Shown: piece after piece, positions 43,908 through 59,811 of the stretch
Position numbering within the stretch: the stretch's first letter is position 1
Layout: each line of letters begins with the position of its first letter
Virus record (IMG/VR): IMGVR_UViG_3300032312_001422
Coordinates: 96,001-160,000 of that record
DNA length: 64,000 nucleotides
Source of the DNA: a virus
Lineage: Duplodnaviria; Caudoviricetes
Strand: one strand, 5' to 3'
Notes under the pieces: model-generated
Databases searched by the model: none
Told to the model about the DNA's origin: nothing
Seen by the model: only the letters and a program-made list of their open reading frames with translations
Translations under genes and position numbers: made by a program

Positions 43908-44557
43908 TGAAAGAAGCAGTTAGACACGGATACTTAGCAGGCGGTGGATTGCGTAGCCCAGATAAAAAACACTTTTATTTGAACATTCCCAAAAACGCCA
44001 GCACGTACCTGTCTAACACACTACTGGCCAATGGATGGCATTATCATACCTTGGGTGATGACAGTGACAAAATTACTCATGCCATGGTTGTGTTAAAAGA
44101 TCCAGTAGATCGTTGGGTCAGCGGAGTTGGTACATATATTAGCAGTTGGATATTAGGGCCAGGTTACGGCAGTGATCACTTTGTTGAAAATTATAATAAT
44201 TTATCCGAACGGCTGTTGTTTGAAACCTTGATACTGGATGACCATACTACACCACAGATTGCATATATCAACCAACTTGAACAACTATTACCAGGCGTAC
44301 CTGTTACATATTTTAAATTAGATCAATTTGTTGTTGACAATATGAGTGTTTGTATATCACAGTTATTGGACGTGCCCGCAGTTGAGTCAAACATTTCTGA
44401 GGATCATTATGATCAGCAAGTCGTAGTTAATTTTATAAAAAAACGAATACTAGCCGACTTTACATTAAAGGCCAAGGTAGTTGCTAGATTTCAAGAGGAC
44501 TACGATTTTATTAACCAAACACAATTTTACTATGAGCCAAGACAACTTAACCGCTAA
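43907..44557 (+). CDS. Sulfotransferase family protein
   Basis: YLNIPKNASTYL (5'-PSB loop-like) and VLKDPVDRWVSG (3'-PB-like). Confidence 0.65.
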   Translation: MKEAVRHGYLAGGGLRSPDKKHFYLNIPKNASTYLSNTLLANGWHYHTLGDDSDKITHAMVVLKDPVDRWVSGVGTYISSWILGPGYGSDHFVENYNNLSERLLFETLILDDHTTPQIAYINQLEQLLPGVPVTYFKLDQFVVDNMSVCISQLLDVPAVESNISEDHYDQQVVVNFIKKRILADFTLKAKVVARFQEDYDFINQTQFYYEPRQLNR

Positions 44558-46097
44558 ACAATCAGACTATGCTGTGTTCCTTCCGGCCATCTCGGGCTTC
44601 TATGCCACATTCATAGGTAAGCAACGTGATCCGGTAGCAGGTCCTTATGTAGACCCGGCTAGATTCCCACAGGGCATAACAGATATGGAACAACTCAACT
44701 GGTTGAATGACCAGAAGGGCATGTTCCCATACAAGTGGTCGCTTTACTCCGGTGGCCACGCAAACCTTGATCTCGCCAAGCAGGACTGGAGCGAGGACAT
44801 GGTTCGCAATCGCGACCCAAACACACTAGTACTAGGTGACTCTGGTGGATTCCAGATTGCCAAAGGACTATGGGAAGGCGATTGGAAGGCCAATTCAGGA
44901 TGTCCCAAAGCACAGAAAAAACGAGAACAGGTTTTGGCGTGGCTTGACGGCATTGCTGACTACGGTATGACCCTTGATATTCCAACCTGGGTTGCACTAG
45001 ATAAAGAAGCAGGTAAGAAATGTGGTATTAGTACGCACCAGGAAGCTGTTGATGCTACCAAATATAACAATGATTACTTTATGGACAATCGTAAAGGTAT
45101 CAAGAACGGTGGCGTTAAGATTTTAAATGTATTACAAGGCGCCAACCACATTGAGGCTGACGATTGGTACGAAACCATGAAACACTATTGTGATCCTGTG
45201 CAACATCCAGACACACACTTTAACGGATGGGCCATGGGTGGACAAAACATGTGTGACGTGGAATTGATTCTCAGACGTTTAGTTACTCTACGTTATGACA
45301 ACTTGTTACAAGAAGGTGTTCACGATTGGATGCATTTCTTGGGCACAAGCAAACTAGAGTGGGCAGTACTGTTAACTGTGATACAACGAAACGTTAGAAA
45401 GTATGTAAATCCTAGTTTCACTATCAGCTTTGATTGTGCTAGTCCATTCCTTGCTACAGCCAACGGACAGGTATACTTTGAAAATGTGTTTCCCGACAAC
45501 GGCAAGTGGTCATACAGGATGGCTCCTAGTGCAGATGACAAAAAGTACGCAACAGACACACGCAAGTGGAGTGACGGAGTGGTAGCGGATGGCAAGTATC
45601 CACGTTGGGAAGACAGTCCACTTAGTAACTTGTTTAAAATGAAAGACATTTGCTACTACAAACCAGGCGATGTAAACAAGAATGGCAAAGAAGGCAAAAC
45701 GTCATGGGATAGTTTTAGTTACGCATTGTTAATGGGTCATAATGTATGGATGCATTTGACAGCGGTACAAGAAGCCAATCGTAGATTTGATGCCGGTGCT
45801 CATCCTGCCATGATGCGTAGCTCAGGCCCGGGTGGTGAATATTTTGAAGACATCGTAGAAGCAATCTTTGCTGCCCCAGATAAAGCAACATCGATGGAGA
45901 TCATTGATATGTATAAAGGAGATACCGGGTATTGGTGTGAAATTGTTGGTACTAGAGGATTCAAAGGCAAGAAAGCTGTTAACGGTAGTGCCAATTTTAG
46001 TAAATTGTTTTATTTTGAAGATGATGTAGAAATTGTAGAAGAAACAACAGAACAAGAATTTGATCAAACTAAACTAGACGCACTGGAGGCAGAATGA
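44532..46097 (+). CDS. tRNA-guanine transglycosylase-like protein (DpdA-type DNA deazaguanine transglycosylase candidate)
   Basis: GDSGGFQ, MTLDIP, VLQG, GWAMGG, HFLG, SFDCASP and GHNV match TGT catalytic motifs; start moved to ATG 44532. Confidence 0.8.
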   Translation: MSQDNLTAKQSDYAVFLPAISGFYATFIGKQRDPVAGPYVDPARFPQGITDMEQLNWLNDQKGMFPYKWSLYSGGHANLDLAKQDWSEDMVRNRDPNTLVLGDSGGFQIAKGLWEGDWKANSGCPKAQKKREQVLAWLDGIADYGMTLDIPTWVALDKEAGKKCGISTHQEAVDATKYNNDYFMDNRKGIKNGGVKILNVLQGANHIEADDWYETMKHYCDPVQHPDTHFNGWAMGGQNMCDVELILRRLVTLRYDNLLQEGVHDWMHFLGTSKLEWAVLLTVIQRNVRKYVNPSFTISFDCASPFLATANGQVYFENVFPDNGKWSYRMAPSADDKKYATDTRKWSDGVVADGKYPRWEDSPLSNLFKMKDICYYKPGDVNKNGKEGKTSWDSFSYALLMGHNVWMHLTAVQEANRRFDAGAHPAMMRSSGPGGEYFEDIVEAIFAAPDKATSMEIIDMYKGDTGYWCEIVGTRGFKGKKAVNGSANFSKLFYFEDDVEIVEETTEQEFDQTKLDALEAE

Positions 46098-46609
46098 ACA
46101 GAGCAGGACACGAACAAGTAAATTTCTTTGTTGGCCGGGAAGTAGAGCATAGCCCGGCATTTGGACATAAAACTTTATTTGTAGTTGGTATTCAGTCTAC
46201 TGATGTTATTCTAAACACGGCCAAGAATAACAACTGCTCACACGTTTATTTTGGCGCAAACCAAAGTTTTCCTAATCCCAAAACCAACGATGGCGACACA
46301 TGGCGTGAATGGGAAGGTATGATTACCGGATGTTTACAACGAGGGATATTGTGTACCTTGGATTTGGACGTATCCAGTGTAGAAGGACTAGTTGAAGGTT
46401 GTTTAATTGAGTACAACAACTTTATCCCGATGATTTCGGTGAAATTGCCCTCTTTACAACTATTAGGATATAATGCTACAATAAAGCTCGACGACAAAGA
46501 CTTTGCGGCATCCAACCCCGGAGTATGGTGTCATCAGTTACATGATTTAAAGGACCGTAAAGTATTTACGGATTGGTCGAAGTACACACAAGACGAAGTT
46601 ATAAAATGA
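46094..46609 (+). CDS. Hypothetical protein coupled to the TGT-like gene
   Basis: ATGA overlaps at both ends. Confidence 0.75.
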   Translation: MNRAGHEQVNFFVGREVEHSPAFGHKTLFVVGIQSTDVILNTAKNNNCSHVYFGANQSFPNPKTNDGDTWREWEGMITGCLQRGILCTLDLDVSSVEGLVEGCLIEYNNFIPMISVKLPSLQLLGYNATIKLDDKDFAASNPGVWCHQLHDLKDRKVFTDWSKYTQDEVIK

Positions 46610-47070
46610 ACCAAGAACAAAGAGAAGTAGTTGAAAGAATTAAAACAGCCGCACATCGCCAGATCTGGGTCACCTTCCAAAAGGAAGGAATTCATTGCTA
46701 TCCGGCTGCAGGCACGGATCCGGCACTAGCAACAGGAGATGAATACGATGTATCGTTTCTTGCTAATCCTCATCGCCATATTTTCCATTTCAGGGTGTCA
46801 ATTGATGTCTTCCACAACGACAGAGATATTGAGTTCATCCAGTTCAAACGCTGGCTCGAGAATCTTTACAGTGGGACCGGTCCCTTTAATCAAGATCGAG
46901 TATTAGAATTAAACTATAAGAGTTGCGAAATGATCGCCGACGACTTGTATGTACAAATTGCTGCACGTTATCCAAATCGTGCTGTCTCAATTGAAGTGTC
47001 CGAGGACGGTGAAAACGGATGCTTAATCAATTATAACCTTACCCGTCCAAGTCAATCAATTGTAATCTAA
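46606..47070 (+). CDS. QueD-like T-fold protein, DpdL-like candidate
   Basis: FLANPHRHIFHF...DRDIEFI...SCEMIADDL; distinct from the canonical QueD at 58255; start moved to ATG 46606. Confidence 0.6.
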   Translation: MNQEQREVVERIKTAAHRQIWVTFQKEGIHCYPAAGTDPALATGDEYDVSFLANPHRHIFHFRVSIDVFHNDRDIEFIQFKRWLENLYSGTGPFNQDRVLELNYKSCEMIADDLYVQIAARYPNRAVSIEVSEDGENGCLINYNLTRPSQSIVI

Positions 47071-47081
47071 GGAGTATTAAA

Positions 47082-47342
47082 ATGGCCCAAGAATGGCTAA
47101 AGAAGTATCTTCGTTTCAAACCCGAAGTAGTAACCATCTTTGAAGATTTAGAACGCTATGAGCGTTTTTGTCGAGACTACGGTTATCCGTTTGACGAAAA
47201 AAATCTTTACAACGAACGCACTCCTTATGGTGAGTATATGAAGATGGTGCGTGGTCGCGAGCCTTGGGATCAGTGGCGTACTCCCAAGCGTGATCGTAAC
47301 ACGTTTAAACCACGTGATACAAATTGGAAACCCAGGGACTGA
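47082..47342 (+). CDS. Hypothetical protein
   Basis: AAGGAG SD, 86 aa. Confidence 0.7.
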   Translation: MAQEWLKKYLRFKPEVVTIFEDLERYERFCRDYGYPFDEKNLYNERTPYGEYMKMVRGREPWDQWRTPKRDRNTFKPRDTNWKPRD

Positions 47343-47356
47343 TGAGGCGTTATAAA

Positions 47357-48547
47357 ATGCGTAAATTATGGTACATGGGGTTGGAGCCCTACAAAGCAAG
47401 ATACACTTTGCAACTACAAGAGTGGAATCGTAGTGTATTTGAACGTCGCGGCATTGATTATGAAATTGTTGAAGGCGAAACACTTTCAAATGACCAAGCC
47501 ATTGTTACAGGACAAGTGCTAGACGCACATGGTCGTACATACTTTGGTATGAGTCAGTTGATGAATCTTGTACGCAAGATGAAACAAGGAGAAGTTACCA
47601 ATGAAGATGTTATCTACTTTGAAGACATGTTTCAACCCGGTATCGAGAGCTTGCCTTACATTATGGATCAAATCGATTCTGCTCATCGTCCTCGCATTGC
47701 CGTTCGTTGCCTTGCACAAAGTATTGACCCCGATGATTTTGTTCATGTGTGGGGTATGCAGAAGTGGATGGGACTTTATGAAAAAATGGTGGATAGTTTT
47801 GCGGATATTATTTTAGCCAGCAACGAAGAGATGGCCATGCACATGAAGGTGGCCGGATGGGAAGGCAACATCTATAATATTTCAGGATTGGCCTTTGGTA
47901 AAGCAGAAGTACGTGGCCGTGTGCCAGGAGAACTAAAGCCATTTCAGGATCGTCGGTATCGTGTGGGATTTGCTGCACGTTGGGATCAAGAAAAGCAACC
48001 AGACTTTTACATGGACTTTATCGAAGCCTGGCATGACAAGTACAAAGATAATTTTCCAATGAATACAGTAGAGTTCTGTATCTTTTCAGGTGCCAAACTA
48101 AAATCAAACAACGACAGCTACATGGCTCGTACAAGAGATTTACAGGCTCGTGGTTTACTAACAGTTTATGAGGACTTGGAAAAAAATGATTACTATGCTT
48201 TGCTTAATAATACTCGTGTATTGTTCAATTGTGCTCTTCAAGACTGGGTCAGCAACACAGTATCGGAGGCAGACACACTCGGCGCTAATGTGCTTTATCC
48301 TGCTTATCGCAGTTTCCCTGAAACTTTTGCTAACGATCATACACGCTTATACGTCCCTTGGTCAATAGACGATGCAATGACCAAGTTGTGGGGTGCGTTG
48401 CAATCACCAAGTCCTAACATGGGCAAGATCAGTGACTGGACAGATGGTTGTATTGATCGGGTTGTAGATATTTTAGAAGGTAAAGGAGAGCAGTGGCGTC
48501 GTATGAGCACTGATTATCGTAAACATACTCATGAAAGCAAATATTAA
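47357..48547 (+). CDS. GT-B glycosyltransferase
   Basis: VIYFED, FAARWDQEKQPDF, VSEADTLGANVLYPAYRSFPE fit the GT-B C-terminal pattern; start moved to ATG 47357. Confidence 0.7.
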   Translation: MRKLWYMGLEPYKARYTLQLQEWNRSVFERRGIDYEIVEGETLSNDQAIVTGQVLDAHGRTYFGMSQLMNLVRKMKQGEVTNEDVIYFEDMFQPGIESLPYIMDQIDSAHRPRIAVRCLAQSIDPDDFVHVWGMQKWMGLYEKMVDSFADIILASNEEMAMHMKVAGWEGNIYNISGLAFGKAEVRGRVPGELKPFQDRRYRVGFAARWDQEKQPDFYMDFIEAWHDKYKDNFPMNTVEFCIFSGAKLKSNNDSYMARTRDLQARGLLTVYEDLEKNDYYALLNNTRVLFNCALQDWVSNTVSEADTLGANVLYPAYRSFPETFANDHTRLYVPWSIDDAMTKLWGALQSPSPNMGKISDWTDGCIDRVVDILEGKGEQWRRMSTDYRKHTHESKY

Positions 48548-49754
48548 AATGACAACCAAAGATATTACCGCAGAACAATTGGTAGCTGTACTCAAATTTA
48601 CACCACGCACATACAAGATCAGTATGTGGGGCTACGGTGGCGAAAAAGTCATGGGCACAGTTAGTCGTGAAGTTTACGATTATTGCGTAGAAAACTGTGT
48701 TGATCTACAGGACATTGCCTGGGGCGACGAAGATCGTGTAGAAGAAATGGGTCTTGACATTGACATGTTGCCATTTACTCCGGGTTCGTGGTATGAATGC
48801 GATGACATGGCACATACCAACGGTGTGAGCCGTAATGCGGGTACACTACAAATCGAAGATGAAAACGGCAATGTTGTTTATGAGCGTAGTCTAGAAGATT
48901 GTGACGGCGGAAGCGATGATAGTCCAGAATGGTCCTGCTTTGATGAAGCATGGATTGGTAGCAAGCCTGCTGGTACTGTGGTATTTGTTGGATGCAGCAA
49001 TGAAAAAGGCACGTTCTTCGAAGGCGAAATTGAATTGACTGAACCGTTTGATATTACCAAACTGACCTTGCAATACGACGAAGTTGATGGTGAAGAACTG
49101 GTCAACTGTGTGCAGTACGATGGTGAGGACATTGACAACTGGGGCGGCAGTACTGACGGCAAGAGTAGTGACTTTGGTATGTATGTTGTGATAGACAGCA
49201 ACACATGGGAAACCTATAGTCCAGAAGAAAAAGACTGGGGTCACCCTGAGTATGGCACTAGCCCAAGCGACTGGGAGAAGTCTGAAACGTTTAAATTTGC
49301 CAAACAGAAACCTACCATTCCAGGTTATTACAATGCAGTATGGAAGCACTACGGAACTACCACCGGGTCGTTGTACTGGGATGGTACGGAGTTTGGCGAG
49401 TGGGAATACGGTAAGTTTAAACCACAAGCAGGTGTTGAGTCTTGGTCGGGCTATAACTGGGACACTAGCTCATGGGTCAATCAACCGCCTGAACCACCCA
49501 ATGTCATTTGCGATAACAAAGAGTGTGGATGGATTGGCAAGAGTGATGAACGCATCACTGATGAAGAGTATAATGATCATTGTCCTAACTGTGAAGGCAC
49601 AGACTTCTCATGGATTGACTATGATCCTGATACCAAAGCGGGTCGTGCCAACCGAGAAAAATTCTGTAAAGAATGGGATCCTGCGGTTGCAATGGATCGT
49701 ATTGTAGCATCCGTGCCCGAGGACGTTGCAACAAAGGCCAAATGGCCATTTTAA
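48531..49754 (+). CDS. Acidic hypothetical protein with C-terminal zinc-ribbon-like motif
   Basis: CDNKEC...CPNC; alternative start at 48549. Confidence 0.7.
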   Translation: MKANIKMTTKDITAEQLVAVLKFTPRTYKISMWGYGGEKVMGTVSREVYDYCVENCVDLQDIAWGDEDRVEEMGLDIDMLPFTPGSWYECDDMAHTNGVSRNAGTLQIEDENGNVVYERSLEDCDGGSDDSPEWSCFDEAWIGSKPAGTVVFVGCSNEKGTFFEGEIELTEPFDITKLTLQYDEVDGEELVNCVQYDGEDIDNWGGSTDGKSSDFGMYVVIDSNTWETYSPEEKDWGHPEYGTSPSDWEKSETFKFAKQKPTIPGYYNAVWKHYGTTTGSLYWDGTEFGEWEYGKFKPQAGVESWSGYNWDTSSWVNQPPEPPNVICDNKECGWIGKSDERITDEEYNDHCPNCEGTDFSWIDYDPDTKAGRANREKFCKEWDPAVAMDRIVASVPEDVATKAKWPF

Positions 49755-49769
49755 CATAAGGAGAATGTT

Positions 49770-50447
49770 ATGAATACAGCAGTATATCGTAGTGCCGCTG
49801 GAATCAATGAAGCAATGGGTCGTGTGTATGGTCACATGAGTGTTGCTGTGATTATCAGTATGATTGTGAGTTATTTTGTAGGATCTAGTCCAGAGTTAGT
49901 TCAATTCTTTTTTACAGGCCTAACAAAATGGATTGTTATCTTTGCTCCGTTAGTGTGTATTTTAGCAATGACATTTGCGTCTGAACGGTTTAGTAAGGGT
50001 GGCCTACAATTATTCTTGTATGCGTTTAGTGCTCTTATGGGTCTGAGCTTTGCCACAATATTTGTCATCTACTCTATGGGCAGTATTGTCACAGCCTTTA
50101 TGGGTGGTGCTGTACTGTTTGGCACCATGAGCATTTATGGTTACTTTACCAAAAAAGATTTGACCAGTGTGGGATCATTTATGTTTGTGGGCTTGATTGC
50201 AATCGTTATTGCCAGCATTGTTAACATTTTTATTGGTAGCACAGTATTGCAAATGGTCATCAGTGCTATTGCTATCGTTGTGTTCTTAGGACTAACTGCA
50301 TACGATACACAAACTATTCGTCAAATAGTAACACGTGACAGCGACACTGGCCGCGAAGAAGTGTTAGGCGCACTTAGCCTATACCTAAACTTTATCAATA
50401 TTTTTATCAGCCTGTTGCAGTTGTTTGGTGGTCGTAATGATGACTGA
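49770..50447 (+). CDS. Bax inhibitor-1/YccA family membrane protein
   Basis: RVYGHM, multiple TM helices, FLGLTAYDTQTI, ALSLYLNFINIFISLLQLFG. Confidence 0.9.
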   Translation: MNTAVYRSAAGINEAMGRVYGHMSVAVIISMIVSYFVGSSPELVQFFFTGLTKWIVIFAPLVCILAMTFASERFSKGGLQLFLYAFSALMGLSFATIFVIYSMGSIVTAFMGGAVLFGTMSIYGYFTKKDLTSVGSFMFVGLIAIVIASIVNIFIGSTVLQMVISAIAIVVFLGLTAYDTQTIRQIVTRDSDTGREEVLGALSLYLNFINIFISLLQLFGGRNDD

Positions 50448-50613
50448 TCCACGCTGTTGCGGTTCAGGCACTTGCATTATTAATGCAGAAGGCGAGTGCT
50501 GGTGCGGACAACGATGGGATGGTACTAAAATGTGCCAACCTTATTATATCAACGAATCCGGTATGAAGGTCAATGCCGTAACAGGAGATCTTATCCATGA
50601 CCAAAAAATTTAG
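50437..50613 (+). CDS. Small Cys-rich hypothetical protein
   Basis: CCGSGTC...CWCG...MC. Confidence 0.5.
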   Translation: MMTDPRCCGSGTCIINAEGECWCGQRWDGTKMCQPYYINESGMKVNAVTGDLIHDQKI

Positions 50614-50736
50614 AATTTGGCTAGCTCGTAAGATTTTAGGCAACCATTGTCCTTGCTATCAAATGGGCTATCACTCAATGGTAGATTTCCAACAGCGTAG
50701 TGCAGATGCTTTAGCCAAACACAAGGCAACAAAAGA

Positions 50737-50940
50737 ATGACAACCTTTACCACCGATGACATTGAAAGTTTAAAGACTGAATGGTTTCCATTTGATTTAG
50801 ATCCTGTCCACGAAGGCGAATACGAAGTAATGAGCTCTGCATGGCCGTGGGTGCATCGTGCAGGGTGGACCAAAAAAAACGGCTGGGGAGATTTACAAAT
50901 TGACCAATGGCGTGGATTAAAGGTACGGATTCCAGAATGA
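50737..50940 (+). CDS. Hypothetical protein
   Basis: 67 aa, ATGA overlap with the galE-like gene. Confidence 0.6.
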   Translation: MTTFTTDDIESLKTEWFPFDLDPVHEGEYEVMSSAWPWVHRAGWTKKNGWGDLQIDQWRGLKVRIPE

Positions 50941-51914
50941 CTAGAAAAGTTGTAGTAACAGGTGGTTGTGGTTACATTGGTAGCCATGTAGCACGAGCAT
51001 TTAAACAGCAAGGCGATCATGTTACTATAATTGATCGAGTCCGACGTGATCACACACTTAAAGATATTGATGGACACTTTATCGGAGACTTTGTCAGTGA
51101 CGGAGCATTGAGTGTACTTATACACGCTGAACCTGATGTGATTGTGCATTGTGCTGGCACCAGCTTGGTAGGACCCAGCATGACCAACCCCGGCGAGTAT
51201 TGGGACAATAACGTGGTAAAGTTTATTAAATTATTAGATGTGGTTAAGAATTTACCCAAGCGACCACTGATCTTGTTCAGTTCAAGTGCCAGTGTGTATG
51301 GCGAACCTAACCGTTTACCAATTCCTGAAACACACAGGATAGACCCAATCAGCCCGTACGGCAATACCAAAGCCACTTGTGAACGCATATTAAAAGACTA
51401 TTACCTAGCTCATGCCGTTCCCAGTGTGTGTTTTAGATTCTTTAATGCTGCAGGTGCTGAGCCTTTTAATTATGACCTTGGCCAAGAACCCAACGCCACA
51501 CACATTGTGGCTCGAGTGCTAGAATCCATGTTGCGTAAAGAAGAATTTGGCCTAAATGGCACAGATTACAAAACACGTGATGGCACTTGTGTCAGAGACT
51601 ACATACACGTATGGGATCTAGCACAGGCACATATTATGGCTGCTGATCGAGCAGGAGAGGCCACCGGATGGGTTGGTGCTCAACAGATCAATCTTGGTAC
51701 CGGCGGTGGTATTAGCAATCAAGAAATTGTCGACTATGTCAAACAACATTACGATCCTGATTTCCGCACAGTTGTGAATTCACCCAGATTGGGAGATCCA
51801 GCTGAATTGGTAGCACAAGCGGATCGAGCCAATGAATGGTTAAATTGGACTGCTGAACACAGCGACATAAGTACTATTATAGACTCAGCTTATAAGTGGT
51901 ATACTCGGGTCTAA
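50937..51914 (+). CDS. galE: UDP-glucose 4-epimerase-like extended SDR
   Basis: VVVTGGCGYIGSH, FSSSASVYG, PYGNTK (YxxxK), FRFFNAAGA, DGTCVRDYIHVWDLA..H; start moved to ATG 50937. Confidence 0.9.
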   Translation: MTRKVVVTGGCGYIGSHVARAFKQQGDHVTIIDRVRRDHTLKDIDGHFIGDFVSDGALSVLIHAEPDVIVHCAGTSLVGPSMTNPGEYWDNNVVKFIKLLDVVKNLPKRPLILFSSSASVYGEPNRLPIPETHRIDPISPYGNTKATCERILKDYYLAHAVPSVCFRFFNAAGAEPFNYDLGQEPNATHIVARVLESMLRKEEFGLNGTDYKTRDGTCVRDYIHVWDLAQAHIMAADRAGEATGWVGAQQINLGTGGGISNQEIVDYVKQHYDPDFRTVVNSPRLGDPAELVAQADRANEWLNWTAEHSDISTIIDSAYKWYTRV

Positions 51915-53318: not shown

Positions 53319-54392
53319 TTTGTCAAGCATGGTTCTTGAAACCTTACCGGCGGCATTCTTAGGTACTTCGTCAACTTCTTTGAGCACAGTTGGATAACAG
53401 TATTGCCCCATAGACACTAATACTGTTTTAATTTGCGTTTTATTGTACGGGCCACTGTATACACATTTTACAGAGTCTGTGCCAAATACTGCCAGGTCTT
53501 TAAGATCAGGAAACACAGCATATAGTTTGTTTTCTAGGCTTAAAGGATCTAATTTGTAGCCGCGAACATTAATACGATCTACACTACGTCCTAGAATTCG
53601 AAAATAGCCTGCTTCATCTTGTTCGGCCAAATCTCCGGTGTCGAGCCAATCCGAATTAGCCACACTAGGACCTCGTATCAGTAGTTTACTTTGTTCAATA
53701 CGTGCTTCTACTCCATCAGGTAAACCCACTGTACCTATGCGTTGTTCTCCATCCAGCGGATTGGTCAAACAGTGACTACATGATTCTGTCATGCCAAAAC
53801 TTTCAACAATAGGCACACCAAACTGTTCTTTCATAGCAGAATACAGTTGCGGAGGTAAAGCAGAGCTAGCACTACGAACAAATCGTAAACTATCAAACCT
53901 TTGTTTCATCAGGGCTTTTAATATATCTGGAATACCAGTAATAAATGTAGGACTGTATTTGGATACTTCTTGTAATCGTCCAATGGGCAAAAATGTTGTT
54001 TCCATACCAATCATGCGACTCATCCAATACATCATTTGGCCGTGTGCATGCCATAGGCTCATTACACCAACATAACGATCATTGGCAGTAAGATTATAGG
54101 ATTTGATTATTTGACCACATACATAATTGACTTGCTGTTCGGTAAAACTGTAAAATTTACTATCGCCAGTTGTGCCTGAAGTATACCAGTAGACTTTTTC
54201 TCCAGGGTACTCAGCACCATCCCGCTCTTGTATGTTGTCGGCCGTGACCAATAGGCTCCAATCCGAATTGTTTAACAGGTATTGGTTTCGGTCAGCCGGC
54301 GCTGCAGGATTCAATACCATAATGCTATAATTTTTATCATATAGTGGTATGTAGTCCCAGGGGTTGGGTACACAAATGACAGCTCTTTTCAT
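53307..54392 (-). CDS. Adenylate-forming (acyl-CoA synthetase-like) enzyme, compact
   Basis: YTSGTTGDSK, ESFGMTE, DTGDL, GRSVDRINVRG, PKNAAGKV. Confidence 0.9.
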   Translation of the reverse strand: MKRAVICVPNPWDYIPLYDKNYSIMVLNPAAPADRNQYLLNNSDWSLLVTADNIQERDGAEYPGEKVYWYTSGTTGDSKFYSFTEQQVNYVCGQIIKSYNLTANDRYVGVMSLWHAHGQMMYWMSRMIGMETTFLPIGRLQEVSKYSPTFITGIPDILKALMKQRFDSLRFVRSASSALPPQLYSAMKEQFGVPIVESFGMTESCSHCLTNPLDGEQRIGTVGLPDGVEARIEQSKLLIRGPSVANSDWLDTGDLAEQDEAGYFRILGRSVDRINVRGYKLDPLSLENKLYAVFPDLKDLAVFGTDSVKCVYSGPYNKTQIKTVLVSMGQYCYPTVLKEVDEVPKNAAGKVSRTMLDKLFA

Positions 54393-54448
54393 TGGATTTT
54401 ATTAGTTGATATGGTATTTATATTTCGATAAAAAATTATCAACACGTA

Positions 54449-54477
54449 TTGACTTGTAGATCTAAATACTGTATAAT
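54449..54477 (+). promoter_or_regulatory. Sigma70-like promoter TTGACT-N17-TATAAT with nested TAAATA
   Basis: Between divergent genes; ATG 54490 lies 12 nt after the -10. Confidence 0.65.
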
Positions 54478-54489
54478 GTTAACATCAAA

Positions 54490-55410
54490 ATGAATAAACC
54501 TACACTTATAAATCTTAAAAATTTACCATACGGTGGTGCACAGTATGTACCCAGCAACGAACGAGAACAATTTGTTCGTCATAGTATCAAAGTATCAGCA
54601 GACAGCTTATGGTTACCACAGTTACAAGATGAATTTCTTGTTGCATATCGTCAATGGATTGGTGCTACCAAACTAAACACCATCGCAGGCCTAGACAAAT
54701 TTCCCGTATCAGCAGTTGCTCAAGGAACCACCGAAGCATTTGATAAATTTTATCTTAAAAATTCTGCTCGTCGTTTGAGATATTTCAAAGGTGAGTACAT
54801 GTATCATCAAGTGGCTGGAAGACAATACTTTGGAAGCGCCAGTACATTTATCGAAGATGAAGCACTGGACATTAATGATGCAGTGGTTGTCAGTTTGCCA
54901 TTCAGTGATACCGGCAATGAACATCCAAAAATGAAGGCCATGCTTGCGGAATGTACAAGATTGGGTATTCCAGTGTTGATGGATTGTGCATATTTTGGTA
55001 TTTGCAGTGGCATTGATTTTGATGTTGATCACGATTGTATCACAGACATAACCTTTAGTCTGAGCAAGACATTTCCAGTTCCCCATTTGCGTATTGGCAT
55101 GCGATTGACACGTGTCGATGATGATGACGCACTACTGGTCACAAACAAAACACAATATGTCAATCGGTTGAGCGTGGCAGTTGGGCTAGAACTCATACAA
55201 ATGTGGGACTGTGATACTATTCCCAATTTGTATTTGGAGACTCAAAAAGAATTTTGCAAAGCATTAGAAGTCGAACCAAGTAATTGTGTTATTTTTGGCA
55301 TAGACACTACTGAAAAATGGAAACAATACAATCGTGGTGGAGCAACCAATCGTTTATGTTTTGCCAAATACCTGCACGAAAAACAATTACCCATTGACTT
55401 CACAGTCTAA
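54490..55410 (+). CDS. PLP-dependent fold-type I enzyme (aminotransferase/decarboxylase-like)
   Basis: GTTEAF, VLMDCAY, TFSLSKTF...RIG. Confidence 0.7.
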   Translation: MNKPTLINLKNLPYGGAQYVPSNEREQFVRHSIKVSADSLWLPQLQDEFLVAYRQWIGATKLNTIAGLDKFPVSAVAQGTTEAFDKFYLKNSARRLRYFKGEYMYHQVAGRQYFGSASTFIEDEALDINDAVVVSLPFSDTGNEHPKMKAMLAECTRLGIPVLMDCAYFGICSGIDFDVDHDCITDITFSLSKTFPVPHLRIGMRLTRVDDDDALLVTNKTQYVNRLSVAVGLELIQMWDCDTIPNLYLETQKEFCKALEVEPSNCVIFGIDTTEKWKQYNRGGATNRLCFAKYLHEKQLPIDFTV

Positions 55411-55422
55411 ATATTATACAAT
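55394..55422 (+). promoter_or_regulatory. Sigma70-like promoter TTGACT-N17-TACAAT with nested TAAATA for folE
   Basis: -35 at 55394-55399, -10 at 55417-55422. Confidence 0.65.
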
Positions 55423-55459
55423 AATACAAAGTCATCCACGACACTAACTCGGAGAATAA

Positions 55460-56302
55460 ATGTCCAAAAATAAAGATAAAAACAAAGATAAAAATAAAAA
55501 TAAAGATCTACTATTTGATGCAATCAAAGCTACACAATACGTAAATGAAGCACCGTATCATCCCGGATACGAAGATGCTGTAATGCACATGAGCGATAAA
55601 GGTTACGAAGAAGGCAAGTATCTAGCCGATGCTATCCGATTTAATATGAAGCGTGATAAAAAACGTTTCTGGGCTGGTGACAACATCAGTGAATACTTGC
55701 ATGAAGGTGATAAAGAACGACTAATCGATGAAGCTACAGAAGCTTTTGAACGAGTGTTAGATACCTTGCTGATTGATCGTGAGAATGATCCTAACTCAAA
55801 AGGTACAGCACGTCGTTTGGCCAAGATGTATTTTAACGAAATTATGGAGGGCAGATATGCTCCAGCGCCAGATGCAACAGCTTTTCCAAATGATTCAGCG
55901 GATAGATACGAAGGTATGCTTGTGGTTCGTAGCGAACTGCGTTCTATGTGCAGTCACCATCATCAGCCTGTGTCTGGTGTTGCTTACATCGGAATCATTG
56001 CCGCAAATAAACTTATTGGCTTGTCTAAATATACTAGGATCGCTCAGTGGTGTGCTCGTCGTGGCACACTTCAAGAAGAACTATGTAACGACATCGCAAG
56101 AGAAATAATGCGGGCCACTGAATCAGAAAACGTGGGTGTGTATATCCAAGCGGTACACGGGTGCTGTGAGAATCGTGGCATTATGGCACACTCTAGTCTA
56201 ACGCAGACTACTGTGTTGCGTGGTAGTTTTCAAACAGACCCAGGAACCAAAAAAGAGTTCATGGACAATATTAAACTACAACAGGACTTTGCTCCTCGTT
56301 AA
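55460..56302 (+). CDS. folE: GTP cyclohydrolase I (type IA)
   Basis: SMCSHHHQP, GLSKYTRI, RRGTLQEEL, HGCCENRG; N-terminal KNKD low-complexity repeat. Confidence 0.95.
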   Translation: MSKNKDKNKDKNKNKDLLFDAIKATQYVNEAPYHPGYEDAVMHMSDKGYEEGKYLADAIRFNMKRDKKRFWAGDNISEYLHEGDKERLIDEATEAFERVLDTLLIDRENDPNSKGTARRLAKMYFNEIMEGRYAPAPDATAFPNDSADRYEGMLVVRSELRSMCSHHHQPVSGVAYIGIIAANKLIGLSKYTRIAQWCARRGTLQEELCNDIAREIMRATESENVGVYIQAVHGCCENRGIMAHSSLTQTTVLRGSFQTDPGTKKEFMDNIKLQQDFAPR

Positions 56303-56316
56303 GGAACATAACTACA

Positions 56317-56979
56317 ATGTTAGAAACCATATGTGAAGTATTAGAAGATGCGTACAAACGCAATTGGATTACCAGCCGTGATGGCAATGTGAGTATTCGT
56401 CATCACGACCGCGATCATTTCTACATCACTCCTAGTGGTGTGCGTAAACAGACACTACAACCTGATCAGTTTAAGAAAATTATAATTAAACCTCCAATGA
56501 CTTGGAACGAACCAGGCACAGGTTTATTAGCAGAACGTTGGGGGTGGAAAGAAGACACCTACACCGATATTAGTTCTAAACTACGACCCAGTGGAGAGAT
56601 TCCTTTGCATTTTGGTCTACAGAAACAGATGGGACAACACTTGGGAGAAGTCCGAGTAGTGGTACATGTGCATCCTACCTACTGCATTGCGGCCATGCAT
56701 GCCGGCATTGATTTGAGTACTGTGAGTGCGGCATTTCCAGAACTCAATCGATATACTCGGGTAGCACCCAATGTACCGGATGTTCCGCCAATCAGTCAAG
56801 AGCTTGCAGATAAATGTTTTGAAAAGCTAGGCCTAGATGATCAAGGTAACATTGCCTATGACATTGTGGGCATCAAAGGGCATGGAGTAGTTGCTATTGA
56901 TACAAGTCCGTGGCGTGCCTATGAGCACATAGAGCGATTAGAACACATTTGCAAGATTGTATTGGCCTCTAAAACATGA
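56317..56979 (+). CDS. Class II aldolase/adducin family metalloenzyme
   Basis: SRDGNVS, ITPSG, PSGE...H, VVHVHPTY, KGHGVV. Confidence 0.88.
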   Translation: MLETICEVLEDAYKRNWITSRDGNVSIRHHDRDHFYITPSGVRKQTLQPDQFKKIIIKPPMTWNEPGTGLLAERWGWKEDTYTDISSKLRPSGEIPLHFGLQKQMGQHLGEVRVVVHVHPTYCIAAMHAGIDLSTVSAAFPELNRYTRVAPNVPDVPPISQELADKCFEKLGLDDQGNIAYDIVGIKGHGVVAIDTSPWRAYEHIERLEHICKIVLASKT

Positions 56980-57305
56980 TACCTAAAAGTTGGCGCATAG
57001 GATTTTTTAACTGGCTTGGTGCAGGCAAAATAACATTAACAGTAGATAAACCACAGGAATACTCAATGGGAAATACATACACAATAGGCGGTGGTGGAGC
57101 AGGGTTGGGCGGCCTTCAGCTTAATCCATCAACTCCACAAAGTAGTCAAACAATGACTGTCAAGATTACTCCAGCCAACGGTGGCACTATTGTTCAAATG
57201 CTAACTAGCGAATATAGCAACGGAGAGTTATATATTATTCCAGACGGAATAGACTTTGATAGGGAACTAGGTAAAATTATCACTATGAGCAAATTAAAAT
57301 CATGA
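56976..57305 (+). CDS. Hypothetical protein
   Basis: ATGA-coupled ORF. Confidence 0.55.
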   Translation: MIPKSWRIGFFNWLGAGKITLTVDKPQEYSMGNTYTIGGGGAGLGGLQLNPSTPQSSQTMTVKITPANGGTIVQMLTSEYSNGELYIIPDGIDFDRELGKIITMSKLKS

Positions 57306-57529
57306 TTACACAAAGCCTACAGGCTGTTATAACAGAAGTATCCGACCTATGGTCTTGGATGATTGGCATTGTTGCTGGTTGGGGTCTAACATTTACTCTT
57401 GTGGTCGCTGTACTGATATATGCACACATCAGAATTTCTAGATTGCAACGTAAGGTAACACAGCTTGAAAATCGTCATGTAACAGATGAGCGGGACCTTA
57501 GCTTACGTATAAGGAAGTTTGAAAAATGA
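57302..57529 (+). CDS. Small membrane protein
   Basis: One TM helix followed by a coiled coil. Confidence 0.6.
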   Translation: MITQSLQAVITEVSDLWSWMIGIVAGWGLTFTLVVAVLIYAHIRISRLQRKVTQLENRHVTDERDLSLRIRKFEK

Positions 57530-57615
57530 AATTAGGTGAACTAATCTCTATGGTTATTTTTGGAATTATCTTGGTTGCATTTATTTTTTATCAATATGGA
57601 CATCATGTAAAATGA
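57526..57615 (+). CDS. 29-aa single-TM protein, not in ORF track
   Basis: MKLGELISMVIFGIILVAFIFYQYGHHVK; ATGA overlaps with both neighbours. Confidence 0.55.
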   Translation: MKLGELISMVIFGIILVAFIFYQYGHHVK

Positions 57616-58166
57616 GTAAAGTATATTACAAAGAATCAACAATTCGATCTTGGGTACACGATATTATCCGTGCTGTGAACGCAGATAATTGGCGCCCCGA
57701 TTATATTGTAGGTCTAACTCGCGGTGGACTAGTTCCTGCTGTGATGCTGAGTCATTACTTGGATGTACCAATGCATGCTCTTAAAGTAAGCCTACGTGAC
57801 GGCGATCATGGACCAGAAAGCAATGCATGGATGGCCGAAGATGCATTCGGTTGGATTGAAGGCGGGTATCGAGGGTTGGGTGGTGACGGTGCGTTTGATT
57901 TTACTATGCATGCTAAAAACATTCTTATAGTAGATGATATCAATGATACCGGCGCTACACTAAACTGGATTCGCAAAGATTGGCAAAGCAGTTGCTTACC
58001 CGATAACTCACGTTGGGAAAATGTATTTGGTAATAACGTTCGCTTTGCTGTATTAATCAATAACGAAGCCAGCGAGTTCACGGACGTGGACTATGTGGGC
58101 ATGTCAATAAACAAACTGGAAGAACCCATCTGGTGTGTTTTTCCTTGGGAAGAATGGTGGAGATAA
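57612..58166 (+). CDS. Type I phosphoribosyltransferase (xanthine-guanine PRTase-like)
   Basis: IVGLTRGGLVPAVMLSHYL; PRPP loop ILIVDDINDTGATL; VFPWE. Confidence 0.88.
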   Translation: MSKVYYKESTIRSWVHDIIRAVNADNWRPDYIVGLTRGGLVPAVMLSHYLDVPMHALKVSLRDGDHGPESNAWMAEDAFGWIEGGYRGLGGDGAFDFTMHAKNILIVDDINDTGATLNWIRKDWQSSCLPDNSRWENVFGNNVRFAVLINNEASEFTDVDYVGMSINKLEEPIWCVFPWEEWWR

Positions 58167-58185
58167 ATAGTTATATCCCCAAAAC

Positions 58186-58249
58186 AGCGGTCTTGGCGTC
58201 ATTCCCGCTTGATAAATTCTGCCGCCTATGCTATAATTAACATAGGAGA
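58186..58249 (+). promoter_or_regulatory. Candidate preQ1-I-like pseudoknot riboswitch with SD-sequestering hairpin upstream of queD
   Basis: AGCGG/CCGCT stem, loop UC...C, pseudoknot UGGCG/UGCCG, then CCTATG/CATAGG hairpin over AGGAG. Confidence 0.5.
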
Positions 58250-58254
58250 AATCA

Positions 58255-58704
58255 ATGGCAAAGTATTACTCAACAAAACATTACGGACACAACATTGGAT
58301 TGAGTGCTGTATTTAGACAGCCCAATGCCGATCATAGTCACTGTCACTTGCTACATGGCTACAGTCTAGCGTTTACATTCACATTTGGTTGTGATCAGCT
58401 AGACAACAAAAACTGGGCAGTGGACTTTGGCAGTCTCAAAGAACTAAAAGCCTGGCTAGAAGATCACTTTGATCACAAATTGGCTCTGGATCAACAAGAT
58501 CCGCACTTGTCCAAGTTCGAAGAATTACAAGCATTGGATCTGGTAGAGATCAGAATATTTGATGGTGTGGGTGCAGAGAAGTTTGCCGAGCATGCTTTCA
58601 ATTTTGCCGATCGATTGATTAGAGAAAAGACCGATGGTCGTTGCTATTGTGTCAGAGCAGAATGTGCCGAACACGGAGCCAATAGTGCAATCTACGAAGG
58701 TTAA
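58255..58704 (+). CDS. queD: 6-carboxy-5,6,7,8-tetrahydropterin synthase
   Basis: HCHLLHGYS, VDFGSLKELK..L...FDH, AEKFAE, AEHGANSAIY. Confidence 0.88.
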   Translation: MAKYYSTKHYGHNIGLSAVFRQPNADHSHCHLLHGYSLAFTFTFGCDQLDNKNWAVDFGSLKELKAWLEDHFDHKLALDQQDPHLSKFEELQALDLVEIRIFDGVGAEKFAEHAFNFADRLIREKTDGRCYCVRAECAEHGANSAIYEG

Positions 58705-58960
58705 CGAAATCTTGGACATATTGCAAGAGGAGTGCGGTGAAGTTATTGTTGCTATCAGCAAAATTCGCCGTTTTGGTATTGACAATACGTACAAGGATGG
58801 TGGTACCCAGCGTGAACACCTGGTACAAGAACTAGGCGATGTTACATTGCTAGTAGAATTACTCAAGGCACACAATATTTTTACAGAAGCAGAATTACAT
58901 GAAGCACAAGTGAGAAAAAGTCAAAAATTAACACAATGGTCGAAAATATATGAAGATTAA
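58685..58960 (+). CDS. MazG-like all-alpha NTP pyrophosphohydrolase
   Basis: LQEECGEV...QELGDV; GTG start at 58685 with GGAG 6 nt upstream. Confidence 0.72.
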   Translation: MQSTKVNEILDILQEECGEVIVAISKIRRFGIDNTYKDGGTQREHLVQELGDVTLLVELLKAHNIFTEAELHEAQVRKSQKLTQWSKIYED

Positions 58961-59810
58961 AGTCAGTGAAATATTTTATAGTTTACAAGGCGAAGGTCGC
59001 TTTGTTGGAGTACCCAGTGTATTCCTTAGAACCTATGGCTGTAACTTTACCTGTTCAGGTTTTGGATGCAAGCCTGGAGAAAAGTCAACAGGTGCCGATG
59101 AGGTTGCTAAAAAGGTTGAACTGTACAAGACATTTACGGACTTGCCCTTGGTAGAAACAGGATGCGACAGCTATGCGTCATGGCACCCTGCTTACAAGCA
59201 TCTAAGTCCAACACTGACCACAGAAGAACTTGTGGAAAAGATGTTGACCTTGACTCCCAACAACCAGTGGGCCCAGAACAATGGCAATGATGTACACTTG
59301 GTTATCACAGGCGGTGAACCTTTGCTAGGTTGGCAACGTGCCTATGCAGAACTGCTGAGTCATCCCAGAATGGCAGACTTAAAAAATATCACATTTGAAA
59401 CCAATGGCACACAAGAACTACACGAAGACTTTAGAGATTATTTGATCGATTGGGCCAGTGACAAAGCTGGTCGTGAAGTTACATTCAGTGTCAGTGCCAA
59501 ACTGAGTGCAAGCGGCGAGACTTGGGAAGATGCTATCAAACCCAAGATTGTCAATATCTATCAAACTTACGGACATACCTATCTTAAATTTGTGGTAGAA
59601 ACAGAAGACCATGTAACTGAAGCAGTCCGTGCTGTGGACGCCTTTAGACATGATGGCTTCAAAGGAGTTGTATACTTGATGCCACAGGGCGGTGTAGTTG
59701 ATCCATACGAATCAAATAAACTAAACATTGCCAACATCTGTTGCAAACTGGGATTCAACTATAGCCCACGCTTGCATGTGGATCTCTGGGGCAACGGCTG
59801 GGGCAAATAA
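58950..59810 (+). CDS. queE: 7-carboxy-7-deazaguanine synthase (radical SAM)
   Basis: EIFYSLQGEG..VG.PSVFLRTYGCNFTC...GCDS, VITGGEPLL, FETNGT, LKFVV, LMPQG, SPRLHVDLW. Confidence 0.9.
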   Translation: MKIKVSEIFYSLQGEGRFVGVPSVFLRTYGCNFTCSGFGCKPGEKSTGADEVAKKVELYKTFTDLPLVETGCDSYASWHPAYKHLSPTLTTEELVEKMLTLTPNNQWAQNNGNDVHLVITGGEPLLGWQRAYAELLSHPRMADLKNITFETNGTQELHEDFRDYLIDWASDKAGREVTFSVSAKLSASGETWEDAIKPKIVNIYQTYGHTYLKFVVETEDHVTEAVRAVDAFRHDGFKGVVYLMPQGGVVDPYESNKLNIANICCKLGFNYSPRLHVDLWGNGWGK

Positions 59811-59811
59811 T

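What the first reader, a model, noticed from the sequence alone, without database searches (positions are those of the whole stretch)
44532..59810. QueC-less 7-deazaguanine DNA modification pathway with a second T-fold enzyme
Seen: FolE, QueD and QueE, a TGT-like protein with the catalytic Asp motifs but no CxCxxC zinc site, an uncharacterised 171-aa gene ATGA-coupled to it, and a second T-fold protein with LANPHRHIF. No QueC or QueF is in the window. Known: FolE-QueD-QueE yield CDG; DpdA transglycosylases insert deazaguanines into phage DNA; DpdL, a QueD-like protein, was proposed as the CDG decarboxylase in phages with unsubstituted 7-deazaguanine (my recollection of its LxxxHRHxF signature needs verification). 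Inference: this phage carries dDG or dCDG, or a further derivative, and 46094 is an unassigned pathway component.
Basis: partly seen in the sequence, partly recalled or inferred. Interest (0 to 1): 0.7.

Follow-up and report, generated by a model that had tools for sequence, protein, structure and literature searches.

The report
QueC-less deazaguanine DNA-modification cluster, new parts
A roughly 355-kb uncultured phage carries the recently described "DpdL-type" gene set for replacing guanine in its DNA with a 7-deazaguanine made without QueC, and two further genes (a 171-residue protein with no clear known relative and a glycosyltransferase) occur only beside DpdL wherever they were found, which makes them the best candidates for the pathway's missing steps.

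Summary
FolE, QueD and QueE are present. The 521-aa protein at 44532 matches no sequence family, but its model matches tRNA-guanine transglycosylases. It keeps DSGGFQ and FDC and has no CxCxxC. The 154-aa protein at 46606 is a DpdL orthologue carrying LANPHRHIF, the published LxxxHRHxF signature. Three genes, 44532, 46094 and 46606, are joined by ATGA overlaps. QueC and QueF are absent from the 289-kb record and from five complete relatives.

New points:
- The transglycosylase is not DpdA3. It belongs to a very large unnamed lineage shared with Pseudomonas phage PA5oct, whose DNA resists G-site restriction enzymes.
- The 171-aa gene founds a family of 588 representative clusters. In cultured phages and in six of seven sampled metagenomic lineages it lies in DpdL clusters. 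Its confident model has no clear solved relative.
- A GT4-like glycosyltransferase occurs in 18 cultured phage records, and all 18 also carry DpdL.

Plain dDG does not explain a glycosyltransferase, so the final base may be a further derivative. The chemistry is untested. An earlier first-reader note of this scan had flagged the glycosyltransferase.

The parts
44532..46097 (+). TGT-fold transglycosylase (DpdA-like, 521 aa) without a zinc site. It belongs to an unnamed lineage shared with PA5oct EST35_0316.
   Evidence: Foldseek against the PDB: the top 50 are all TGT. BFVD: phage TGT and DpdA proteins. D103, D149, Q202, G271 and D301-C302 are invariant. More than 7,788 metagenomic homologues.
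46094..46609 (+). ORF171, a conserved alpha/beta protein of unknown function. It is translationally coupled between the transglycosylase and DpdL.
   Evidence: ATGA overlaps at both ends. 588 representative clusters. AF2 pLDDT 93.6. No clear solved relative. Lies in DpdL clusters in ACP17 and in metagenomic lineages, and elsewhere in the PA5oct genome.
46606..47070 (+). DpdL, a QueD-like T-fold protein and the proposed CDG decarboxylase. LANPHRHIF lies at residues 52-60 (bases 46759-46785).
   Evidence: phrog_17812, E 5.7e-34. tblastn to ACP17 DpdL 6e-37 and to phiST DpdL 2e-8. Alignment with QueD. Motif as given in PMC10516641.
47082..47342 (+). Small conserved ORF (86 aa) between DpdL and the glycosyltransferase. 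It is specific to this phage clade.
   Evidence: Present in 72 of 80 related loci in the same position. No family hit.
47324..48547 (+). GT4-like (GT-B) glycosyltransferase. The true start is probably 47342 or 47357.
   Evidence: Profile against the PDB: group 1 glycosyltransferases, E 2.7e-4. Atlas features: GT1 and GT4 clusters, 0.97-1.00. Homologues lie beside DpdL or DpdA in ACP17, PA5oct, X1 and Phosso. All 18 cultured phage records with this family also carry DpdL.
50907..51914 (+). NAD-dependent sugar-nucleotide epimerase/dehydratase. It may supply the donor sugar for the glycosyltransferase.
   Evidence: PF01370, E 1.1e-43, and PF16363, E 8.1e-40. Conserved downstream of the glycosyltransferase in 51 of 80 related loci and in L093 and L101.
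55460..56302 (+). FolE, GTP cyclohydrolase I.
   Evidence: PF01227, E 5.5e-39.
57612..58166 (+). Purine-type phosphoribosyltransferase.
   Evidence: PF00156, E 4.4e-12. Weak xanthine and HGPRT NCBIfam hits. Homologues lie in the PA5oct (EST35_0321) and L093 clusters.
58255..58704 (+). QueD, CPH4 synthase. It has the Cys-x3-His-Gly motif that DpdL lacks.
   Evidence: PF01242, phrog_2389, alignment.
58634..58960 (+). MazG-like nucleotide pyrophosphohydrolase, overlapping the ends of queD and queE.
   Evidence: PF03819, 25.1 bits against a cut-off of 22. MazG genes also lie next to DpdL in phiST and in L095.
58950..59810 (+). QueE, the radical-SAM CDG synthase.
   Evidence: phrog_2076, E 6.7e-53. 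QueE NCBIfam hits. Alignment with phage QueE proteins.

Best explanation
The region encodes a QueC-independent, DpdL-type system that replaces guanine in the phage's own DNA with a 7-deazaguanine made from the CDG branch point.

Proposed steps:
1. FolE, QueD and QueE turn GTP into 7-carboxy-7-deazaguanine (CDG). This follows from established enzyme families.
2. With no QueC, CDG is not converted to preQ0. DpdL, a QueD paralogue whose catalytic Cys is replaced by Leu, processes CDG instead. The published proposal is decarboxylation to 7-deazaguanine. This step is inferred, not shown.
3. The 521-aa TGT-fold enzyme has the general acid and nucleophile aspartates intact but no zinc site. It exchanges G in DNA for the deazapurine after replication. 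This is inferred from the DpdA family and from the G-site restriction resistance of PA5oct DNA.
4. ORF171 is translated as a unit with the transglycosylase and DpdL. It is a dedicated accessory of this branch. My best guess, at about 30%, is a small substrate-handling or catalytic subunit acting between CDG and insertion, for example helping decarboxylation or handing the base to the transglycosylase.
5. The GT4-like enzyme is tied to DpdL in cultured phages. With the epimerase, it points to a sugar-nucleotide-dependent step. The final base is therefore probably not bare dDG in this group.
For: - Gene identities.
- TGT fold and invariant catalytic motifs.
- DpdL orthology and motif.
- Absence of QueC and QueF in the record and in five complete relatives.
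- ATGA coupling of the three genes.
- The order DpdA-like, ORF171, DpdL, h86, GT is kept in 80 related IMG/VR loci.
- The same families cluster in distant lineages: ACP17, PA5oct, L093, L095, L097, L099, L101 and L102.
- Among 50,697 cultured phage records, ORF171 occurs only in PA5oct-like phages and ACP17. All of these carry DpdL.
- The GT family occurs in 18 records, all of which carry DpdL.
- DpdL plus DpdA alone gave no dDG in E. coli, and the authors suggested that unknown enzymes are missing (PMC10516641).
Against: - No chemistry was measured for this phage or its clade.
- DpdL's decarboxylase activity has never been shown.
- phiST, the only DpdL phage with proven dDG, has neither ORF171 nor the GT. 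Neither can therefore be essential for dDG as such.
- ORF171 is missing from the DpdL and GT phages X1 and Phosso. It was also not found in BCSR5 or BUCT-ZZ01 by tblastn.
- dDG has no obvious acceptor group for a sugar.
- Much of the synteny comes from related phages, so it is partly inherited rather than independent.
- The transglycosylase lacks the zinc site of canonical TGT and matches no TGT sequence model.
Confidence: 0.6

Rival explanations
1. Plain dDG pathway as in phiST. FolE, QueD, QueE, DpdL and the transglycosylase are sufficient. ORF171, the GT and the epimerase are replication-region neighbours with unrelated jobs, such as glycosylation of another base or of a protein.
For: phiST makes dDG without ORF171 or the GT (PMC10516641). 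The cluster sits among replication genes, with a DNA polymerase nearby in L093, L099, L101, ACP17 and PA5oct. Synteny there could be inherited.
Against: All 18 cultured records with the GT family and all 13 with ORF171 also carry DpdL, out of 50,697 records. Gene order is shuffled between lineages, yet the genes stay together. ORF171 is ATGA-coupled on both sides.
Confidence: 0.15
2. Pre-replicative route. The phosphoribosyltransferase turns the free deazapurine (CDG or DG) into a nucleotide. The MazG-like enzyme removes the competing canonical dGTP. The polymerase then incorporates the analogue. The TGT-like protein is auxiliary or acts on another substrate.
For: A PRT and a MazG-like gene are interleaved with queD and queE. 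PRT homologues lie in the PA5oct and L093 clusters. MazG lies beside DpdL in phiST and L095. The ADG nucleoside was seen in the cytoplasm of CP220-infected cells (PMC10516641). From my own knowledge: tubercidin biosynthesis couples CDG to PRPP.
Against: The transglycosylase keeps all catalytic residues under strong conservation and is present in every lineage. A PRT was seen in only 3 of 13 neighbourhoods. The published view is that all known 7-deazaguanine DNA modifications are made after replication.
Confidence: 0.12
3. The host's QueC finishes the pathway, so the phage carries dPreQ0 or dADG. DpdL has another role.
For: Most bacteria have queC. The QueC control search matched 13 of 14 reference genomes. 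The phage boosts only the steps up to CDG.
Against: This is the gene pattern (FolE, QueD, QueE, DpdL and DpdA without QueC) that was linked to dDG in phiST. Loss of queC holds across the whole clade, in five complete genomes. The phage's own DpdL is conserved at 58-92% identity in all but one of the 73 related loci where a complete DpdL gene could be delimited; the exception, L073, is 40% identical.
Confidence: 0.06
4. The target is RNA (phage or host tRNA), not DNA.
For: The closest solved folds are tRNA-guanine transglycosylases.
Against: The nearest viral structural matches are phage TGT or DpdA-type proteins. The genes are embedded among replication genes. PA5oct DNA is restriction-resistant at G-containing sites.
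Confidence: 0.04

Closest known systems
DpdL-type dDG pathway of Cellulophaga phage phiST (FolE, QueD, QueE, DpdL, DpdA3, MazG; Cui, Hutinet et al., NAR 2023, PMC10516641)
   Same: FolE, QueD and QueE are present without QueC or QueF. There is a second T-fold protein with LxxxHRHxF, a TGT-superfamily transglycosylase, and a MazG-like gene in the cluster.
   Different: The transglycosylase here has 521 aa and is not detectably similar in sequence to the 259-aa phiST DpdA3. The two DpdL proteins share only 33% identity. phiST has a P-loop kinase-like gene where ORF171 sits, and the two are unrelated. phiST has no GT4-like gene and no ORF171.
Pseudomonas jumbo phage PA5oct (Wroclawvirus): EST35_0316 to 0322 plus EST35_0364
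   Same: It has the same transglycosylase lineage (36% identity, E 3e-74), a GT homologue, DpdL (54%), an ORF171 homologue (47%), a PRT-like gene and QueE. Its DNA is experimentally resistant to G-site restriction enzymes.
   Different: The ORF171 homologue lies 27 kb from the cluster. The modified base has not been identified. The host and the phage family differ.
Acidovorax phage ACP17 cluster: QueD, FolE, ORF171 homologue, DpdA2-like, GT, DpdL, QueE
   Same: DpdL (52% identity), ORF171 (31% identity, HMM E 4e-27) and the GT all lie in one tight operon with the CDG genes. Its DpdL and DpdA were the ones tried without success in E. coli.
   Different: Its transglycosylase (424 aa) is a relative of the validated DpdA2 of Vibrio phages nt-1 and VH7D. 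It is only marginally alignable to the window's protein (hhalign probability 62%).
Bacterial tRNA-guanine transglycosylase (Zymomonas mobilis TGT)
   Same: It has the (beta/alpha)8 TGT fold. The DSGG(F/Y)Q, (F/L)D, VQG, LxG and FDC motifs stand in the same order. The residue equivalences to D102, D156, Q203 and D280 come from my recollection of the Z. mobilis numbering.
   Different: 13-14% identity and TM-score 0.40 to 0.53. There is no CxCxxC...H zinc site and no Pfam PF01702 match. The protein has about 150 extra residues. The presumed substrate is DNA.

Membership tests
DpdL (proposed CDG decarboxylase) | QueD-like T-fold protein homologous to phiST CGPG_00067 and ACP17 DpdL | tested here: met
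   tblastn gives 6e-37 to ACP17 DpdL and 2e-8 to phiST DpdL. The protein aligns with QueD, with G28, H56, E108 and E133 invariant. phrog_17812, E 5.7e-34.
DpdL (proposed CDG decarboxylase) | Signature LxxxHRHxF in place of the QueD CxxxHGH | tested here: met
   L52-A-N-P-H56-R-H58-I-F60. The motif is as stated in PMC10516641.
DpdL (proposed CDG decarboxylase) | Genome encodes FolE, QueD, QueE and a DpdA but no QueC | tested here: met
DpdL (proposed CDG decarboxylase) | Decarboxylates CDG to 7-deazaguanine | not testable with these tools
   The activity is also unproven in the literature.
TGT/DpdA superfamily | TGT (beta/alpha)8 fold | tested here: met
   Foldseek against the PDB: the top 50 are all TGT, E 2.6e-8, probability 1.00, TMt 0.53. 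BFVD matches are phage TGT-type proteins.
TGT/DpdA superfamily | Catalytic aspartates (general acid in DSGGxQ, nucleophile in FDC) | tested here: met
   D103-S-G-G-F-Q and F-D301-C are invariant in 29 homologues down to 44% identity. DSGG and the LxG motif align with ACP17 DpdA2. The equivalence to Z. mobilis D102 and D280 is from memory.
TGT/DpdA superfamily | Zinc site CxCxxC...H | tested here: not met
   The 521-aa translation has no CxCxxC. The only Cys between 303 and 420 is C374.
TGT/DpdA superfamily | Match to Pfam TGT (PF01702) | tested here: not met
   No Pfam hit at E 0.01. No PF01702 match in the whole record at E 1.
DpdA3 subfamily | Sequence relationship to phiST CGPG_00065 | tested here: not met
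   BLASTP E 3.2. hhalign probability 2.5%. Foldseek ranks the phiST protein 28th, E 1.8e-3.
DpdA2 subfamily | Sequence relationship to nt-1, VH7D and ACP17 DpdA2 | tested here: inconclusive
   hhalign probability 62% over 158 columns with ACP17 DpdA. Foldseek E 1.8e-10 to a Vibrio phage nt-1 protein. No BLAST-level similarity. DpdA1, DpdA4 and bDpdA references were not on hand.
QueE / radical SAM (considered for ORF171) | Fe-S cluster Cys motif and sequence homology to QueE | tested here: not met
   No Cys is conserved in 59 homologues. hhalign of ORF171 against the QueE profile gives probability 0.1%. Only a moderate fold resemblance remains: Z 5.4-6.0 and TM 0.54-0.58.
GT4 / GT-B glycosyltransferases (47324-48547) | Sequence relationship to group 1 (GT4) glycosyltransferases | tested here: met
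   Profile against the PDB: group 1 glycosyltransferases E 2.7e-4 and WlaC 0.002. Atlas features 0.97-1.00 to Glycos_transf_1 clusters. R219, E223, K224 and E315 are invariant. No direct Pfam hit for the window protein.

The most novel reading that the evidence does not exclude
The conserved set DpdA, DpdL and GT4, with ORF171 in some lineages, makes a 7-deazaguanine derivative not yet described in DNA. This could be a sugar-bearing deazapurine built from CDG, which would be the first glycosylated purine in phage DNA. It occurs in PA5oct, ACP17, X1, BCSR5, Phosso, BUCT-ZZ01 and a very abundant clade of roughly 355-kb environmental phages. In that case ORF171 would be a new enzyme fold acting on CDG or its product.
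Probability: 0.3. Interest if true: 0.85.

Novelty: new variant of a known kind. Interest (0 to 1): 0.62.

Why it matters
The 2023 work that defined dDG and DpdL could not rebuild the pathway from DpdL and DpdA, and it left "other unknown enzymes" open. This analysis names two concrete candidates that are found with DpdL wherever they occur. Both are present in the very phage (ACP17) used for the failed reconstitution. It also links them to PA5oct, a cultured therapeutic-candidate phage whose G modification is known to exist but has not been identified. The transglycosylase lineage has thousands of metagenomic members and is invisible to Pfam, so 7-deazaguanine DNA is probably far more common in large environmental phages than domain-based surveys show. 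If a sugar is attached, this would be a new class of purine hypermodification, relevant to restriction evasion, to modification-dependent nucleases and to sequencing artefacts.

Tried and rejected
Searches that found nothing or led nowhere:
- Pfam, PHROGs and NCBIfam gave nothing for ORF171 or the transglycosylase.
- PDB sequence searches with single sequences and with profiles found nothing real. The Cake/Scone hits come from designer repeat proteins, with no matched stretch passing on its own.
- phiST gp041, the gene between DpdL and DpdA3, is not an ORF171 homologue.
- The Phosso 177-aa "glycosylase" and the X1 143-aa protein occupy similar positions but are not significant homologues. hhalign gave 0.2% and 0.6%. 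The X1 protein shares a G-x-E-V-E start, which I treat as unproven.
- ORF171 against the QueE profile showed no sequence relationship.
- Longer ORF171 fusions of 250-350 aa carry C-terminal extensions with no family. The portal and deaminase hits look spurious.
- A search for longer fused forms found none.
- The look-up of P0235 gave only contigs of about 1 kb.
- A viral-contig scan with the distant member P0257 found nothing.
- megablast of the region against cultured phages gave no match.

Tools that could not be used:
- Relatives cannot be drawn for a virus record.

Negative checks:
- No Rfam family, preQ1 riboswitches included, matched 42000-61000 at E up to 1.
- Promoter-like and terminator-like sites are not more frequent than in shuffled sequence.

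Full report
**Setting.** The window is bases 96001-160000 of a 288,815-bp IMG/VR virus record that CheckV rates 80% complete. Close relatives are complete at 354-374 kb, and one has terminal repeats. This is therefore a jumbo phage of about 355 kb. Nearly all genes of the region lie on the + strand.

**Checking the observation.**
- FolE (55460-56302), QueD (58255-58704) and QueE (58950-59810) are confirmed by Pfam, PHROGs and NCBIfam.
- The 521-aa protein at 44532 matches no sequence library. It has no Pfam, PHROG, NCBIfam or PDB-sequence hit, even with a 29-sequence profile, and Pfam TGT finds nothing in the whole record.
- Its AlphaFold model (pLDDT 80.6, pTM 0.84) returns only tRNA-guanine transglycosylases as the top 50 PDB matches (E 2.6e-8, TM 0.40 to 0.53).
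- D103-SGGFQ, D149, Q202-G, L270-G271 and F-D301-C are invariant in homologues down to 44% identity. By my recollection of the Zymomonas enzyme, these correspond to D102, D156, Q203, G230 and the nucleophile D280.
- There is no CxCxxC.
- The ATG of 46094 overlaps the upstream TGA, with a GGAGG 5 nt before it. Its own TGA overlaps the ATG of 46606. The three genes therefore form one translationally coupled unit.
- The 154-aa product of 46606 carries L52-ANP-HRH-IF60.

**The DpdL recollection is right.** PMC10516641 states that DpdL (phiST CGPG_00067) is a QueD paralogue whose CxxxHGH motif is changed to LxxxHRHxF. It occurs in phages with DpdA, FolE, QueD and QueE but no QueC, and it is the proposed CDG decarboxylase. 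[quoted passage not shown] The window protein is 52% identical to ACP17 DpdL and 33% identical to phiST DpdL. It aligns with both and with QueD.

**No QueC or QueF.** Pfam QueC and QueF find nothing in the record or in five related genomes rated 98-100% complete. The controls matched as expected. QueC-lessness is therefore a property of the clade and not an effect of the missing 20% of the record.

**Which DpdA?**
- The protein has more than 7,788 metagenomic homologues, none with a Pfam domain, on contigs of up to about 360 kb.
- Among cultured phages it matches only PA5oct-like phages (36% identity), Vibrio phage 2.275.O and Phosso.
- It is not DpdA3: BLAST against the phiST protein gives E 3.2, hhalign gives 2.5%, and Foldseek ranks that protein 28th.
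- The ACP17 transglycosylase is a relative of the validated DpdA2 of nt-1 and VH7D. The window's profile aligns to it only marginally (62% probability).
- I treat the protein as an unnamed long DpdA lineage. DpdL thus travels with at least three transglycosylase types.

**ORF171.**
- An exhaustive search finds 588 representative clusters at 50% identity, with no family name anywhere.
- The model from 59 diverse homologues is confident (pLDDT 93.6). It is a small parallel alpha/beta domain.
- The conserved polar residues are E18, K131, D134 and N141, with N56 and D90 conserved in the consensus. Also conserved are W145, T159, W161 and Y164. No Cys or His is conserved.
- Foldseek against the PDB finds nothing below E 0.02. 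A full structural scan gives a best Z of 6.7, to a STAS domain, which is within the range the tool itself calls common.
- QueE recurs as a weak match in three libraries (Z 5.4-6.0, TM 0.54-0.58). Profile-profile comparison with phage QueE is null. This is a resemblance of shape, not shown homology.

**Where ORF171 lives.**
- In 80 related IMG/VR loci the order MT, h244, (h216), DpdA-like, ORF171, DpdL, h86, GT is kept despite insertions. Because these phages are related, that is weak evidence.
- Stronger evidence comes from cultured phages. Among 50,697 records the family occurs only in the eleven PA5oct-like records and in ACP17, using three different queries. All of these carry DpdL, which is present in only 29 records.
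- In ACP17 it sits inside the operon FolE, ORF171, DpdA2, GT, DpdL, QueE.
- Seven distant metagenomic members (about 33-39% identity) were traced to contigs. Six have DpdL within 10 kb, mostly with the GT, the transglycosylase and QueE, and in different gene orders. The seventh contig starts at the gene.
- It is not universal. X1, Phosso, RHph_I1_18 and phiST lack it.

**The glycosyltransferase.**
- The 407-aa protein at 47324 is homologous to the genes between or beside DpdA and DpdL in ACP17 (9e-15), X1 (2e-14), Phosso (3e-6) and PA5oct.
- Its profile hits group 1 glycosyltransferases in the PDB (2.7e-4), and language-model features agree.
- R219, E223, K224 and E315 are invariant. From my own knowledge, this is the usual diphosphate and ribose-binding set of GT4 enzymes.
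- In cultured phages the family occurs in 18 records from six host genera (Xanthomonas, Burkholderia, Acidovorax, Sinorhizobium, Synechococcus, Pseudomonas). All 18 are among the 29 DpdL records.
- An all-against-all comparison of 13 DpdL neighbourhoods recovers these families: DpdL 13, QueE 12, GT 10, FolE 9, ORF171 8, the long DpdA 7, QueD 6, epimerase 4 and PRT 3.

[quoted passage not shown] It is restricted by nucleases that sense modified G, and it was inferred to carry a 7-deazaguanine, but the base was not identified (PMC12191111). I found no paper linking a glycosyltransferase or an ORF171-like protein to 7-deazaguanine DNA.

**Reading.** The simplest account is the published DpdL scheme: GTP to CDG, DpdL acting on CDG, and insertion by a DpdA. 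What the scheme does not explain is why a GT4 enzyme, and in several lineages ORF171, are tied to DpdL, since dDG offers no obvious sugar acceptor. Three possibilities remain:
- The final base in this group is a further derivative.
- The GT and ORF171 act on an intermediate.
- They serve a linked but separate purpose.

phiST makes dDG without either gene, so neither is needed for dDG in principle. The PRT and MazG-like genes interleaved with queD and queE keep a pre-replicative nucleotide route open as a rival or a supplement.

**Verdict.** The system is a new variant of the known DpdL-type pathway. It has an unnamed transglycosylase lineage and two unrecognised conserved components. These components make the open reconstitution problem directly testable in PA5oct and ACP17.

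Noticed in passing
window 49770-50447: A Bax inhibitor-1/YccA-type membrane protein (PF01027, E 3e-53) lies inside the cluster region. It is present in only 6 of 80 related loci, so it is a variable insert.
   Followed up: partly
window 51931-52959 and 53307-54392 (- strand): A radical-SAM protein whose best NCBIfam hit is prokaryotic viperin, far below the cut-off (51.9 bits against 180). Next to it is a shortened acyl-CoA-synthetase-like AMP-binding protein on the opposite strand. Both occur in only a few relatives (5 and 9 of 80 loci).
   Followed up: partly
window 56317-56979: A class II aldolase/adducin-type protein (PF00596, E 1.6e-26) lies between FolE and the phosphoribosyltransferase. 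Its role is unknown.
   Followed up: no
window 42173-43123; L093:9250-9999: A SAM-dependent methyltransferase (Methyltransf_12/23/25) is conserved upstream in 69 of 80 related loci. A distant lineage has a different methyltransferase (Methyltransf_24) inserted between the transglycosylase and ORF171. Methylation might be part of the module.
   Followed up: no
window 43173-43907: The 244-aa protein (phrog_12062) has homologues beside the cluster in seven lineages. They are annotated as 'sliding clamp' in Phosso and 'structural protein' in PA5oct. It is probably a replication clamp and not a pathway gene.
   Followed up: partly
window 58164-58257: No Rfam family, preQ1 riboswitches included, matches the queD leader or anything else in 42000-61000 at E up to 1. 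A sigma-70-like site (TTGATA-17-TATAAT, with TG) lies at 58209-58237.
   Followed up: partly
L001 (ACP17 KY979132.2) record 83050-83535: The ACP17 ORF171 homologue is annotated as 132 aa (83137-83535). The family profile matches an open frame of 170 aa running from 83050 to 83529, so the deposited start is probably too far downstream.
   Followed up: partly
L085:4843-5376 (Xanthomonas phage X1): X1 has a 177-aa PAPS-reductase/ATP-pyrophosphatase-family protein (PF01507, E 1e-13) right after FolE in its DpdL cluster. QueC belongs to the same superfamily. This phage may therefore activate the CDG carboxylate in another way.
   Followed up: no
L095:10001-11059 and L099:10001-10870: Some ORF171 homologues are 250-350 aa long. 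Their C-terminal extension of 110-180 aa matches no family and nothing in this window.
   Followed up: partly
L103 (CAYYOB010000119.1): The only hit in 185,579 species genomes is a 2.7-kb contig binned into an uncultured Polynucleobacter MAG (65% identity). It is probably phage DNA. This is a weak hint of a freshwater betaproteobacterial host.
   Followed up: no
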